From a phage, in the sequence record PQ826431.1: a stretch of 64,000 nucleotides of DNA; one strand, 5' to 3'. Both the position numbers and the translations under genes were made by a program. A model generated the notes under the pieces. It was not told where the DNA came from, did not search any database, and worked only from the letters and a program-made list of their open reading frames with translations. Below, one piece after another: positions 33,149-35,224 of this stretch; within the stretch, counting starts at the first letter, position 1, and each line of letters starts with the position of its first letter.

Positions 33149-35224
33149 GTGGCAAAGAAAAAGGCAGCAGGTAGTTTAGCTGGAGTAGATATTGAAGTAA
33201 AGGCTCAACCAGGTAAACAGACTCTTGCAATGGATTTAATGCCAGAAGTTATGATTTATGGTGGTGCCGCTGGATGTGTTTCTGCTGAAACGGAATATCT
33301 TACAAAAGATGGTTGGAGGCAGATTAGTGAATATTCGGGAGAGGATATTTACCAATACAATCCTAAGAATAAGCGTTTAGAATTGGTAACACCTTATTTT
33401 GTAGAATACGATTTAAATGGAGATAACCTATACAGAATAACAAATGGTGTAGGATTATTCCAAGAACTTAGTATGGAACACCGTTTTGTATTCTATAAGA
33501 AAAAGAAATCAAAGAAACATTTCGAGATTCTTGTAGGAGATCTTATTGCATTACAGCAAATAGGAAAACCCCTGCAAGGTTATGTAGAAAATCCATTCGG
33601 TAAACGTGTTCCTTTTAACATACCTGGTAAAAAGAGCACTTACTTAAAAATACACGAGGTTATTTCAACAGATGATAAGAAATATTGTTTTGAGACTCCA
33701 AGCAGTTATATTGTCTTTAGACGTGGCGATCACTGCTTCGTTACTGGGAATAGCGGCAAGTCTCGTCTGCTATTGCTGAAAGCTTTAAAATACGCCTACA
33801 AAGACCCTTTGTTTGGTGGAATACTTTTCCGTAAGAACACCACTGCTCACCGTAAACCAGGTGGTCTGTTTACAGAAGCAAAACGTTTGTATCTTCCTTT
33901 ACAACCACACGTAAAAGAAAGTACAATGGATATCATTTTTGAAGCCACTGGTGGTGGAACCCTCAAATTTGACCATTTGGAAAATGATAACGTAACAGCA
34001 GAAACAAACCATCAGGGTACACAGTATTCAATGGTAGGTTTTGATGAGTTAACCCACTTCACACAATATGAAATGCTCTATCTTCTGGGACGTATGCGTT
34101 CAGAGTCAGAAACAAGTTTCATGTTGTGCACATGTAACCCTGACGCAGATAGTTGGGTTTTGAATTGGGTGTTACCTTATCTTGATGAGGGTGGTTATCC
34201 TAGAGAAGATATGTGTGGTAAACAAAAATATTTCATCATTGTTAACGATGAACCTGTTTTTGCTGACACACCTGAAGAACTGAAAGAAAAATATCCAGAA
34301 AACTGTTTCATGGAAAACCCTAATACAGGGGAGACAGTTGTTATTGAACCACAAACTTTCGTATTTATTGGTGGGACAATATTTGATAACCCAGAACTAA
34401 TTAGGCTTAACCCTAATTACTTAGCACAGCTTAAATCACAAACAGCTATCAAAAGAGCACAGCTTCTGGACGGTTGTTGGTTTGCACGTATCCAGAAAGA
34501 ATCTTTCTTTCAACGTGAATGGTTACATAAAATATCTTATAAAGATGTTCCTAACAATCTTAAACTAATGCGAGCATGGGATAAAGCTGTTTCAGTTCCT
34601 ACAGAAACTTACCGTTATCCAGACTATACAACATCTGTCAAAATGGGTAAAGACCAAGATGGTAATATCTACATCTTTGGCGACTATGATTATGATGCTG
34701 TGGATGAGAAAAGTAAAATTTTCGGAAGGTTTCGAAGACTACCTGGGGAAAGGGATAACCTGATTCTAAATCAATGTAAGATTGATGGACCAGAAGTTAC
34801 AGTAGTTCTTCCTAAAGACCCATCTGGTGCTGGGACAATAGAATATACAGAGTCTGCAAAGAAACTTATTCTAGAGGGTTTTGTTGTTAAACCAGATGCT
34901 ATGCCAGGCAACAAGAAAAAGCTTCAGCGTTTTATGCCTTTTAGTAGTGCGTGTCAAAACGGTTTTGTTTATATTGTTGAAGATTCTTTCCCTAATGTGG
35001 AAACTTTAACCCACTTTTATAAAGAATTGGAATCTTTCAATGGTGAAAGATCTACAGCCACTATTAAAGATGACATTCCCGATGCTGCTGCCTCTTGTTT
35101 TAATACTCTGTCAAAAGAGAATACTTTCAAAGCAGTAGCTATCCCTACAACAACAAATGCTCCTACAGGATACAGTAGAATGAACAGCGGATTTCACCAA
35201 CCGTATAGTGTCCGTAAAAGATAA
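33149..35224 (+). CDS. terL: terminase large subunit (TerL) interrupted by an in-frame mini-intein
   Basis: Walker A reconstituted across the insertion ('YGGAAG' + 'SGKS' = GGAAGSGKS), Walker B 'MVGFDELTHF'; 691 aa, 532 aa without insert; position before portal. Confidence 0.8.
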   Translation: MAKKKAAGSLAGVDIEVKAQPGKQTLAMDLMPEVMIYGGAAGCVSAETEYLTKDGWRQISEYSGEDIYQYNPKNKRLELVTPYFVEYDLNGDNLYRITNGVGLFQELSMEHRFVFYKKKKSKKHFEILVGDLIALQQIGKPLQGYVENPFGKRVPFNIPGKKSTYLKIHEVISTDDKKYCFETPSSYIVFRRGDHCFVTGNSGKSRLLLLKALKYAYKDPLFGGILFRKNTTAHRKPGGLFTEAKRLYLPLQPHVKESTMDIIFEATGGGTLKFDHLENDNVTAETNHQGTQYSMVGFDELTHFTQYEMLYLLGRMRSESETSFMLCTCNPDADSWVLNWVLPYLDEGGYPREDMCGKQKYFIIVNDEPVFADTPEELKEKYPENCFMENPNTGETVVIEPQTFVFIGGTIFDNPELIRLNPNYLAQLKSQTAIKRAQLLDGCWFARIQKESFFQREWLHKISYKDVPNNLKLMRAWDKAVSVPTETYRYPDYTTSVKMGKDQDGNIYIFGDYDYDAVDEKSKIFGRFRRLPGERDNLILNQCKIDGPEVTVVLPKDPSGAGTIEYTESAKKLILEGFVVKPDAMPGNKKKLQRFMPFSSACQNGFVYIVEDSFPNVETLTHFYKELESFNGERSTATIKDDIPDAAASCFNTLSKENTFKAVAIPTTTNAPTGYSRMNSGFHQPYSVRKR
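33275..33751 (+). other. mini-intein (Hint domain, about 159 aa, no endonuclease domain) inside terL P-loop
   Basis: Begins 'CVSAETEYLTKDGWRQISEY' (intein block A-like), ends '...YIVFRRGDHCFVTGN' followed by Ser; excision restores a canonical Walker A. Confidence 0.65.

What the first reader, a model, noticed from the sequence alone, without database searches (positions are those of the whole stretch)
33275..33751. Mini-intein inserted in the Walker A P-loop of the large terminase
The TerL ORF reads ...MIYGGAAG-[CVSAETEYLTKDGW ... YIVFRRGDHCFVTGN]-SGKSRLLLL... Removing the 159-residue insert, which begins with Cys and ends with Asn followed by Ser, recreates a canonical Walker A GGAAGSGKS, and Walker B (MVGFDELTHF) follows. 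The insert has an intein block-A-like N-terminus and no homing endonuclease domain. The penultimate residue is Gly rather than the usual His.
Basis: partly seen in the sequence, partly recalled or inferred. Interest (0 to 1): 0.7.

Follow-up and report, generated by a model that had tools for sequence, protein, structure and literature searches.

The report
Mini-intein in phage terminase P-loop
The DNA-packaging motor gene of this E. coli phage is interrupted, in the middle of its ATP-binding loop, by a 159-residue self-splicing protein element (a mini-intein) that has gone unannotated and has an unusual catalytic layout with two cysteines.

Summary
ORF 33149..35224 (+) is the large terminase (TerL) of a Phapecoctavirus, a phAPEC8-like coliphage. 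Residues C43-N201 (nt 33275-33751) split the Walker A motif GGAAG|SGKS. Insert-less relatives, including rV5, read GGAAGSGKS without a break.

Evidence that the insert is an intein:
- Larger relatives at the same TerL site carry a LAGLIDADG homing endonuclease.
- Presence and absence are scattered across the TerL tree.
- Within Stephanstirmvirinae the insert is fixed and under strong purifying selection (dN/dS about 0.05).

Pfam and NCBIfam miss it, and none of the GenBank records I inspected annotates it.

The penultimate Gly is the family norm (T-G-N), as in AceL NrdHF. The new feature is a near-invariant pair of thiols: Cys1 plus Cys138 at block F position 4. Related inteins in RNR-beta carry either Ala1 with Cys F:4 or Cys1 with Gly F:4. 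The family therefore spans the class 1 and class 3 layouts. Splicing itself is untested.

The parts
33149..35224 (+). Large terminase (TerL) precursor ORF, 691 aa, GTG start after a GGAGGG ribosome-binding site
   Evidence: Pfam Terminase_6N E 5e-17 over residues 202-460. Annotated as terminase large subunit with the same ends in GenBank relatives.
33149..33274 (+). N-extein (42 aa), ending in the first half of Walker A, GGAAG (nt 33260-33274)
   Evidence: Insert-less homologs continue directly into SGKS.
33275..33751 (+). Mini-intein, 159 aa (TerL C43-N201), Hint fold, no homing endonuclease
33275..33316 (+). Block A: C1-VSAETEYLTKDGW. Cys1 is the candidate N-terminal nucleophile
   Evidence: C1, T6, G13 and W14 are invariant in 28 TerL inserts. 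Cys1 is present in 189 of 192 relatives.
33467..33487 (+). Block B: L-S66-M-E-H69-R70-F71 (B:7 Ser, B:10 His, B:11 Arg, B:12 Phe)
   Evidence: His is invariant in 192 of 192 relatives and B:7 is Ser or Thr in 183 of 192. This is the same S-x-x-H-R pattern as AceL NrdHF S65/H68/R69/M70 (PMC7891396).
33494..33520 (+). Lysine-rich loop YKKKKSKKH, strongly conserved within the phage clade; role unknown
   Evidence: Seven of its nine residues are invariant in 17 clade members. Synonymous codon changes in other phages show the constraint is on the protein.
33680..33700 (+). Block F: K-Y-C138-F-E-T-P142. Cys138 sits at F:4, the position of the class 3 branch-point nucleophile
   Evidence: K136, Y137 and C138 are invariant in 28 TerL inserts. 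Cys at this position in 190 of 192 relatives. It has the same register to the C-terminal Asn as the Cys of the Ala1 RNR-beta inteins (21 residues); the AceL NrdHF C124-N146 spacing is 22 (PMC7891396).
33737..33751 (+). Block G: F-V-T157-G158-N159 (G:5 Thr, G:6 Gly in place of His, G:7 terminal Asn)
   Evidence: G158 and N159 are invariant. Among relatives: G at G:6 in 185 of 192, N in 188 of 192, T or S at G:5 in 174 of 192. AceL NrdHF ends T144-G145-N146.
33752..35224 (+). C-extein (490 aa plus stop). Ser+1 opens SGKS (nt 33752-33763), the second half of Walker A; Walker B MVGFDE is at nt 34031-34048
   Evidence: The +1 residue is Ser, Cys or Thr in all 192 relatives.

Best explanation
The 159 residues are a functional mini-intein. 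TerL is translated as a 78.7-kDa precursor whose ATP-binding P-loop is broken between Gly42 and Ser202. The Hint domain then excises itself as an 18.6-kDa product and joins the flanks with a normal peptide bond. That restores GGAAGSGKS and yields the active 60.1-kDa terminase.

The chemistry I infer:
1. A thiol attacks the Gly42-Cys43 peptide bond, activated by His69 with Ser66.
2. The N-extein acyl group is passed to the hydroxyl of Ser+1.
3. Asn159 cyclises and releases the intein. The missing penultimate His is probably compensated by Arg70 (B:11), as in AceL NrdHF.
4. An O-to-N shift gives the peptide bond.

Two thiols are available for step 1: Cys1 (the class 1 route) and Cys138 at block F:4, which together with His69 and Thr157 forms the class 3 triad. 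My commitment is that Cys1 initiates and Cys138 acts as a covalent relay or a redundant second initiator. About even odds that Cys138 participates covalently.

The element descends from a mobile intein carrying a LAGLIDADG endonuclease. It lost the endonuclease and became fixed in the Stephanstirmvirinae.

Shown here: the in-frame optional insertion, the fold, the homology, the conservation pattern and the selection. Inferred: that splicing occurs, and by which route.
For: 1. The insert is optional at a conserved site. 59 of 93 related TerLs read GG[AS]AGSGKS uninterrupted, including the sister clade P0019-21 and rV5.
3. Sequence homology to that proven intein: E 2e-11.
4. The same domain occurs in primase-helicases, a RecD-like helicase, RNR large and small subunits, RtcB and multi-intein proteins. 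Among 192 copies: Cys1 189, His B:10 192, Cys F:4 190, Gly G:6 185, Asn 188, and +1 always Ser, Cys or Thr.
5. Larger relatives at the same TerL site model as Hint plus LAGLIDADG, like PI-SceI and TliVMA (E 2.5e-14), with weak LAGLIDADG_3 Pfam hits.
6. Scattered distribution: at least 12 gains or losses on the extein tree.
7. Purifying selection on the whole insert: dN/dS 0.04-0.08, against 0.03-0.07 for the extein.
8. Precedents for penultimate Gly. AceL NrdHF G145, where G145H abolishes splicing and R69 compensates (PMC7891396). Bethlehem gp51 intein G316 (PMC5050341).
9. Either thiol can suffice in this family. RNR-beta inteins at one site are either Ala1 with Cys F:4 or Cys1 with Gly F:4.
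Against: - No experiment shows splicing of this protein. Everything rests on sequence, models and comparison.
- Pfam and NCBIfam intein models give no hit on the insert.
- Three residues depart from the canonical pattern: the penultimate His, the block F His and Asp F:4.
- Selection is as strong on the central linker and the Lys-rich loop as on the catalytic core. That is more than splicing alone obviously requires and could point to an extra or different function.
- dS is saturated (1.5-2.9, and incalculable in one comparison), so the dN/dS values are rough.
- Only the best 150 of 12,248 profile hits could be inspected, so family statistics describe the closest relatives only.
Confidence: 0.9

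Rival explanations
1. It splices purely by the class 3 route. Cys138 (F:4) attacks the N-terminal junction directly and forms a block F branched thioester. Cys1 is not a nucleophile and is kept for structure or for redox control.
For: The class 3 triad Cys F:4 / His B:10 / Thr G:5 is fully conserved. The nearest characterised homolog by sequence and by structure is a proven class 3 intein with the same S-x-x-H-R, Cys F:4 and T-G-N residues. Family members with Ala1 keep Cys F:4. Literature states that class 3 inteins do not require an N-terminal nucleophile even when one is present (PMC5222942). Tori et al. found 3 of 37 WCT inteins with Ser1 or Cys1.
Against: Cys1 is present in 189 of 192 relatives and in all 35 TerL inserts. 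That is hard to explain if it were dispensable, since typical class 3 inteins have Ala there. B:12 is Phe, not Trp. Related RNR-beta inteins with Cys1 do without Cys F:4 altogether (Gly), so Cys1 can initiate in this lineage.
Confidence: 0.3
2. It splices purely by the class 1 route. Cys1 makes the linear thioester. Cys138 merely replaces the usual Asp F:4 as a non-covalent helper.
For: Cys1 is invariant. Two RNR-beta relatives work with Cys1 and Gly at F:4, and two inteins in P0147 have Cys1 with Ser at F:4.
Against: Cys F:4 is as conserved as Cys1 (190 of 192). Thr or Ser at G:5 is conserved as in class 3 inteins, and high conservation of Thr there is reported as a class 3 trait (PMC7891396). 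Ala1 relatives show that the F:4 thiol can initiate.
Confidence: 0.3
3. It is a domesticated, non-splicing Hint-derived domain that stays in mature TerL as a structural or regulatory insertion.
For: It is fixed in all Stephanstirmvirinae examined. It co-diverges with the extein. It is under extein-like purifying selection, including the non-catalytic linker and the Lys-rich loop. The N and C termini of a Hint domain lie close together, so the flanks would stay near each other.
Against: It sits inside the Walker A loop, between residues that must wrap the phosphate. The splice-junction residues C1, N159 and Ser+1, together with His69 and Cys138, are invariant. The same domain with the same residues sits in many unrelated enzymes at catalytic motifs. 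Sister TerLs function without it. Mapping of TerL intein sites onto a pentamer led others to conclude that assembly is unlikely with an intein present (PMC5050341).
Confidence: 0.04
4. It is a cleavage-only autoprocessing Hint domain, like a BIL domain. It cuts TerL without ligating the flanks.
For: BIL and Hedgehog domains are among the structural neighbours.
Against: A +1 nucleophile (Ser) and a terminal Asn are present and conserved, whereas BIL domains lack the +1 nucleophile (PMC7664689). Cleavage without ligation would leave the essential P-loop permanently broken.
Confidence: 0.02

Closest known systems
AceL NrdHF-1-1 intein (PDB 6zgq; Hoffmann et al. 2020, PMC7891396), a naturally split class 3 intein from a phage-like Antarctic metagenome contig
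   Different: AceL NrdHF begins with Ala1, is split into two genes with a GIY-YIG endonuclease gene between them, and sits in RNR-beta. The window element begins with Cys1, is contiguous and cis-splicing, sits in TerL, and has a linker 13 residues longer between blocks B and F.
Mycobacteriophage TerL P-loop inteins TerL1-a and TerL1-b (Kelley et al. 2016, PMC5050341)
   Same: Inteins in the Walker A loop of a phage large terminase. Those were shown to splice, and splicing was argued to be required for ATPase assembly.
   Different: Those sit in Terminase_1-type TerL, at or next to the classic GK|T position, and are detected by standard intein profiles. This one sits in a Terminase_6N-type TerL, three residues upstream at G|SGKS, and belongs to a different intein sequence family. 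In that survey the only TerL6 site was the C-motif.
WCT-triplet inteins that retain Ser1 or Cys1 (3 of 37 in Tori et al. 2010, PMC2807308). From memory: MP-Catera gp206 and the Nocardioides JS614 TOPRIM intein, studied in Tori and Perler 2011, a paper not held in the library
   Same: They combine an N-terminal nucleophile with the class 3 block F Cys and block G Thr.
   Different: Those have Trp at B:12 and His at G:6 and were rare exceptions. Here the dual-Cys state is the norm across the nearest relatives, with Phe, Val, Met, Ile or Leu at B:12 and Gly at G:6.
Mycobacteriophage Bethlehem gp51 (RDF) intein
   Same: A phage intein with a penultimate Gly that splices well. Changing the Gly to His slows splicing (PMC5050341).
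   Different: Classified as class 1, contains an endonuclease, and sits in a different host protein.
Canonical bifunctional inteins PI-SceI, TliVMA and PI-PfuI
   Same: The 325-aa relative at the same TerL site models as Hint plus LAGLIDADG and matches these structures (E 2.5e-14 to 6.5e-11).
   Different: The window copy has lost the endonuclease, leaving a conserved 51-residue linker. Sequence identity to these inteins is about 10-14%.

Membership tests
Intein (protein-splicing Hint domain) | In-frame insertion at a conserved site of a host protein, absent from homologs | tested here: met
   GGAAG|SGKS is interrupted here and continuous in 59 related TerLs and in rV5.
Intein (protein-splicing Hint domain) | Hint fold | tested here: met
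Intein (protein-splicing Hint domain) | Nucleophile at position 1 (or an internal substitute), block B (T/S)xxH, C-terminal Asn, and Ser/Thr/Cys at +1 | tested here: met
   C1, S66-x-x-H69, N159 and Ser+1, all invariant or nearly so in relatives.
Intein (protein-splicing Hint domain) | Penultimate His (G:6). Common but not obligatory | tested here: not met
   Gly158. Gly is the family norm (185 of 192), and spliced precedents exist.
Intein (protein-splicing Hint domain) | Excision with ligation of the flanks, shown experimentally | not testable with these tools
   Needs protein expression or proteomics.
Mini-intein | Splicing domain only, with no homing endonuclease domain in frame, out of frame or antisense | tested here: met
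   159 aa. The model is one Hint domain with a single short helix. No other ORF of 60 aa or more lies inside it. Relatives with the endonuclease are 300-330 aa.
Class 3 inteins | No Cys, Ser or Thr at position 1 | tested here: not met
   Cys1. The later literature treats this as 'not required' rather than 'absent'.
Class 3 inteins | Cys at block F position 4 | tested here: met
   Cys138. 190 of 192 relatives. Its register from the C-terminal Asn (21 residues) is identical to that of the F:4 Cys in the Ala1 RNR-beta inteins; AceL C124-N146 is 22 residues. The register was derived from the HMM alignment and counted from the C-terminus; no residue-level structural superposition was available.
Class 3 inteins | Thr at block G position 5 | tested here: met
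   Thr157. Thr or Ser in 174 of 192 relatives.
Class 3 inteins | Trp at block B position 12 | tested here: not met
   Phe71. Trp in only 2 of 192 relatives. AceL NrdHF, a proven class 3 intein, has Met there.
Class 3 inteins | Block F branched thioester intermediate, the mechanistic definition of the class | not testable with these tools
   Needs trapping and mass spectrometry of mutants.
Class 1 inteins | [quoted passage not shown] | tested here: inconclusive
   Cys1 is present and conserved, but its chemical role cannot be tested here.
Class 1 inteins | Typical assisting residues: Asp at F:4, His at F:13 and His at G:6 | tested here: not met
   Cys138 at F:4. No His about nine residues after Cys138 (I146/V147). 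Gly158 at G:6.
Bacterial intein-like (BIL) domain | Lacks the +1 nucleophile and mainly cleaves | tested here: not met
   Ser+1 is present, and the +1 residue is Ser, Cys or Thr in all 192 relatives.
Terminase_6N-type TerL (the host protein) | Walker A, Walker B and a C-terminal nuclease region | tested here: met
   PF03237 E 5e-17 over residues 202-460. A TIGR01630 terminase match over residues 559-654, below its cutoff. Walker A is restored only after removing the insert.

The most novel reading that the evidence does not exclude
The window intein belongs to a large, mostly phage and metagenomic intein family that standard profiles miss. Its normal state carries both the class 1 nucleophile (Cys1) and the class 3 nucleophile (Cys F:4, with the His B:10 / Thr G:5 triad). 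The family also contains members that have lost one thiol or the other: Ala1 with Cys F:4, and Cys1 with Gly F:4, at one RNR-beta site. If both thiols are chemically active, as a relay or as redundant initiators, this dual-nucleophile state would be the viable evolutionary bridge between class 1 and class 3 splicing. It has been argued that no such bridge exists (PMC7664689). The coliphage TerL copy would be an easily manipulated natural system in which to test it.
Probability: 0.35. Interest if true: 0.75.

Novelty: new variant of a known kind. Interest (0 to 1): 0.55.

Why it matters
**Practical.** More than 130 deposited coliphage and related genomes carry this element, including the reference phages phAPEC8 and phi92 and several therapy candidates. 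All eight records I inspected label the gene as terminase large subunit, as hypothetical protein or (phi92) only by locus name, with no intein noted. A 2024 paper that describes one of these phages states that no inteins have been reported in coliphages (PMC11162368). TerL lengths, alignments and terminase-based phylogenies for this subfamily include 159 residues that are very probably absent from the mature enzyme.

**Conceptual.** The element represents an intein family that Pfam and NCBIfam do not detect. It keeps two candidate initiating cysteines and lacks both assisting histidines. Its relatives include natural single-thiol versions of both kinds. That makes the debated question of how class 3 splicing arose from, or converged with, class 1 directly testable with a few point mutants in an E. 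coli phage gene. A small, apparently robust mini-intein with Ser+1 and a Gly at -1 could also be of interest as a protein-engineering tool, as AceL NrdHF was.

Tried and rejected
- **Standard intein HMMs.** Pfam and NCBIfam scans of the insert found nothing. Single-sequence phmmer against PDB gave only noise. These negatives were overturned by profile and fold searches, so they reflect model coverage only.
- **Endonuclease by sequence.** A profile of the large relatives against PDB sequences found only 6zgq and no LAGLIDADG protein. Pfam LAGLIDADG_3 hit only 3 of 12 members. The endonuclease was confirmed by fold instead.
- **Hidden endonuclease.** I looked for a gene in another frame or on the antisense strand of the insert, as reported for some actinophage inteins. 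There is none of 60 aa or more.
- **Second copy.** A six-frame scan of the window with the family profile found only the TerL copy.
- **Nucleotide-level constraint on the Lys-rich loop** (slippery site or embedded signal). Rejected: synonymous positions vary between phages.
- **Recent horizontal acquisition.** GC content is 0.342 in the insert against 0.385 in the extein, only mildly lower. Intein and extein identities track each other within the clade. Inheritance there is vertical.
- **Literature.** Searches for a prior description in phAPEC8, phi92 or Stephanstirmvirinae found none. Tori and Perler 2011 could not be read.
- **Model geometry.** I could not measure Cys1-Cys138 distances because model coordinates are not exposed.
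Full report
**1. The observation**

The window comes from a Phapecoctavirus, a phAPEC8-like E. coli myovirus of about 150 kb. The TerL gene is 99.0-99.8% identical in DNA to the 30 best-matching deposited genomes. ORF 33149..35224 (+) encodes 691 aa and reads ...MIYGGAAG|CVSAETEYLTKDGW...DHCFVTGN|SGKSRLLLL. The insert is TerL C43-N201, nt 33275-33751, 159 aa, exactly as reported. Removing it recreates GGAAGSGKS. Walker B (MVGFDE) follows at residues 295-300. The Pfam Terminase_6N match begins at residue 202, the first residue after the insert. Computed masses are 78.7 kDa (precursor), 60.1 kDa (spliced) and 18.6 kDa (insert).

**2. The insert is optional for this terminase family**

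Among 120 TerL homologs, many of 500-520 aa read YGGAAGSGKSRL without interruption. These include P0019-21, which are 62-64% identical to this TerL, and rV5 of the neighbouring subfamily Vequintavirinae (IGGAAGSGKSFL). Other homologs carry an insert at exactly the same point. It always starts with Cys, ends in [TS]-G-N, and is followed by SGKS. Sizes range from 146 to 328 aa (146-159 for the mini forms, 246-328 for the larger ones). On a neighbour-joining tree of 93 exteins (59 without insert, 26 mini, 8 large), presence or absence needs at least 12 changes. Several insert-bearing TerLs have insert-less nearest neighbours. That scattered pattern is what a mobile element produces.

**3. The insert is a Hint domain homologous to a proven intein**

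Pfam, NCBIfam and single-sequence PDB searches of the insert found nothing. An alignment of 28 inserts (A1) gave:
- a confident AlphaFold2 model (pLDDT 91.9, pTM 0.83);
- Foldseek hits at E<=0.001 that are all inteins, bacterial intein-like domains or Hedgehog autoprocessing domains;
- the same entry by sequence, from the A1 profile (E 2e-11).

**4. It belongs to a large intein family found in classic intein host proteins**

The A1 profile matched 12,248 proteins at E<=1e-3, 3,425 at E<=1e-10 and 187 at E<=1e-30 in the 50%-clustered library. Only the best 150 were returned, so what follows describes the closest relatives.
- The matched domain lies at varied positions, and 39 proteins carry two to four copies.
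- Hosts sampled include Toprim/DnaB-type primase-helicases, a RecD-like helicase, the RNR large subunit, RtcB and the RNR small subunit.
- 79 of 192 copies sit in a P-loop at G|[STC]GK[ST].
- Pfam's intein models do not hit these domains in the host proteins either.
- 168 of the 192 copies are 280 aa or longer. A 325-aa relative from a TerL P-loop models at pLDDT 93.2. It matches the bifunctional inteins TliVMA, PI-SceI and PI-PfuI (E 2.5e-14 to 6.5e-11), and its middle part matches I-DmoI-type LAGLIDADG endonucleases. This agrees with weak LAGLIDADG_3 Pfam hits.

The window copy is therefore a mini derivative that has lost the endonuclease. No ORF of 60 aa or more lies in another frame inside it.

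**5. In this phage lineage the mini-intein is fixed and strongly constrained**

The insert's DNA is found in 134 deposited phage genomes, mainly Phapecoctavirus and Justusliebigvirus (the phi92 group) and relatives. Within the clade, intein identity tracks extein identity (for example 87/90, 73/74 and 53/68%). Comparing the window with phi92, Tr1, PsgM04F and phiWec181:
- intein dN/dS is 0.04-0.08, against 0.03-0.07 for the extein;
- the central linker (residues 75-125), where relatives carry the endonuclease, is as constrained as the Hint core, with omega about 0.06;
- seven of the nine residues of the Lys-rich loop YKKKKSKKH are invariant across the 17 clade members while its codons vary, so the constraint is on the protein.

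dS is saturated, so these ratios are approximate.

**6. Catalytic anatomy and mechanism**

Block positions come from the HMM alignment and from counting back from the C-terminus. They are:
- Cys1
- Ser66 (B:7), His69 (B:10), Arg70 (B:11), Phe71 (B:12)
- Cys138 (F:4), Pro142
- Thr157 (G:5), Gly158 (G:6), Asn159 (G:7)
- Ser+1

| Position | Count in 192 relatives |
|---|---|
| Cys1 | 189 |
| His B:10 | 192 |
| Cys F:4 | 190 |
| Gly G:6 | 185 |
| Asn G:7 | 188 |
| Thr or Ser at G:5 | 174 |
| +1 residue | Ser 111, Cys 53, Thr 28 |
| Trp at B:12 | 2 |

This is nearly the pattern of AceL NrdHF: S65, H68, R69, M70, C124, P128, T144, G145, N146. In that intein Cys124 was shown to be the class 3 branch point, both assisting histidines are absent, G145H abolishes activity, and R69 contacts the C-terminal scissile carbonyl (PMC7891396). 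A spliced phage intein with penultimate Gly is also known (Bethlehem gp51; PMC5050341).

The unusual point is that Cys1 is kept alongside Cys F:4. Definitions of class 3 stress a missing N-terminal nucleophile. Later work says only that it is not required, and 3 of 37 WCT inteins had Ser1 or Cys1.

**7. A natural experiment inside the family**

One of the top 150 hits (P0237) begins with Ala. Searching with it recovered inteins in the RNR small subunit (PF00268) at a single site...RDE|x...TVTGN|xVHGYY. They come in two layouts.

| Layout | Members | Block F | +1 |
|---|---|---|---|
| Ala1 with Cys F:4 | P0237, P0269, P0277, P0270-74, P0276 | EVYCVQVP | Cys |
| Cys1 with Gly F:4 | P0279, P0281 | RVYGVQVP, TMYGVEVP | Ser |

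P0279 and P0281 are 54% identical to each other and 38-47% identical to P0237. All share block B SPNHRM, as in AceL NrdHF (VSPNHRMIY). Two inteins in P0147 have Cys1 with Ser at F:4, and P0153 has Pro1 with Cys F:4.

One family therefore holds three states: both thiols (the majority, including the window copy), the internal thiol only (class 3 layout) and the N-terminal thiol only (class 1 layout). This shows by comparison that either thiol can suffice in this scaffold. It does not show which one acts when both are present.

I commit to splicing (0.9). Within that, I favour initiation at Cys1 with Cys138 as a covalent relay or a redundant initiator, at about even odds for covalent participation.

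**8. Rivals**

- A retained, non-splicing domain would leave the Walker A loop broken. It would not explain invariant junction residues shared with copies in unrelated enzymes. The extein-like constraint on non-catalytic parts keeps a small probability alive, or suggests an added role.
- A cleavage-only BIL-type domain is contradicted by the conserved +1 nucleophile and by the need to restore the P-loop.

**9. Comparison with what is known, and novelty**

Inteins in TerL P-loops are well known in mycobacteriophages, but in Terminase_1-type proteins at or next to GK|T. P-loop ATPases in general are favoured sites. Here the host is a Terminase_6N-type TerL, the site is G|SGKS, and the intein family is different.

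The eight GenBank records I inspected call the gene terminase large subunit or hypothetical protein, or, for phi92, give only the locus name Phi92_gp119 (plus the hit tables). These include phi92 and a BASEL phage whose authors annotated inteins elsewhere. A 2024 paper that describes a Justusliebigvirus says no inteins are reported in coliphages. I found no prior description in the searchable literature.

I rate it a new variant of a known kind. It is certainly an intein by every computable criterion, but it has a catalytic layout (Cys1 + Cys F:4 + T-G-N, with no assisting histidines) that no characterised intein has.

**10. Limits**

- There is no biochemical evidence.
- Structures are predictions, and I could not read coordinates to measure thiol distances.
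- Family statistics cover only the best 150 hits.
- The tree is a quick neighbour-joining tree.
- The single-thiol variants are metagenomic sequences, though each layout is supported by at least two diverged sequences.

Noticed in passing
P0237, P0269-P0281 (RNR small-subunit proteins): At one insertion site in RNR-beta (...RDE|...TVTGN|xVHGYY), related inteins occur either as Ala1 + Cys F:4 + Cys+1 or as Cys1 + Gly F:4 + Ser+1. This looks like a natural swap between the class 3 and class 1 layouts, with the +1 residue co-varying.
   Followed up: partly
P0270-P0274; L009:3001-4092: ORFs of 351-363 aa consist almost entirely of an Ala1-type intein, with only about 11-16 aa before it and at most 13 aa after it (MNTLQGNIEAE|intein|CVHGYHKCRARFM). 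They lie on contigs up to 345 kb. In L009 the neighbours are a TnpB/Cas12f-like gene and a DNA methyltransferase, and no RNR gene with a Pfam hit is adjacent. This may be an orphan or decaying intein.
   Followed up: partly
window 33494-33520: The lysine-rich loop YKKKKSKKH inside the intein is strongly conserved (seven of nine residues invariant) across 17 clade members at down to 68% extein identity, while its codons vary. The former-endonuclease linker (intein residues 75-125) has omega about 0.06. This is more constraint than splicing obviously needs.
   Followed up: partly
L004:683-3113 (Escherichia phage WalterGehring, Vequintavirus): The homologous TerL of a sister subfamily is annotated as a two-piece joined CDS with a putative homing endonuclease gene (1327-1917) inside the gap. 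That appears to be an intron at a different TerL position, so the same gene hosts different mobile elements in neighbouring phage groups.
   Followed up: no
window 29603-31645: A cluster of 10 tRNA genes found by ARAGORN (Met, Arg, Ser, Asn, Thr, Gly, Gln, Pro, Ile, Met). Rfam reports an eleventh tRNA-like match at 30304-30388 (39 bits) that ARAGORN did not call.
   Followed up: no
window 32512-32904 and 32795-33139: Two overlapping ORFs in different frames lie immediately upstream of TerL. Their counterparts are annotated as Rz-like spanins (i-spanin and o-spanin) in related records, so lysis genes sit directly before the packaging gene.
   Followed up: no
hit tables: Records named Acinetobacter phage vB_AbaM_ABPW7, Campylobacter phage B15/A145 and Pseudomonas phage PsgM04F share 79-99.8% DNA identity with this coliphage TerL or intein. 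For the near-identical ones the host labels look doubtful and may reflect contamination or mis-assignment.
   Followed up: no
P0124 (2602 aa), P0166, P0167: Very long metagenomic proteins carry many inteins. P0124 has at least four copies of this family between residues 1264 and 2228, plus Pfam-detectable inteins upstream and a DUF559 endonuclease-like C-terminus.
   Followed up: no
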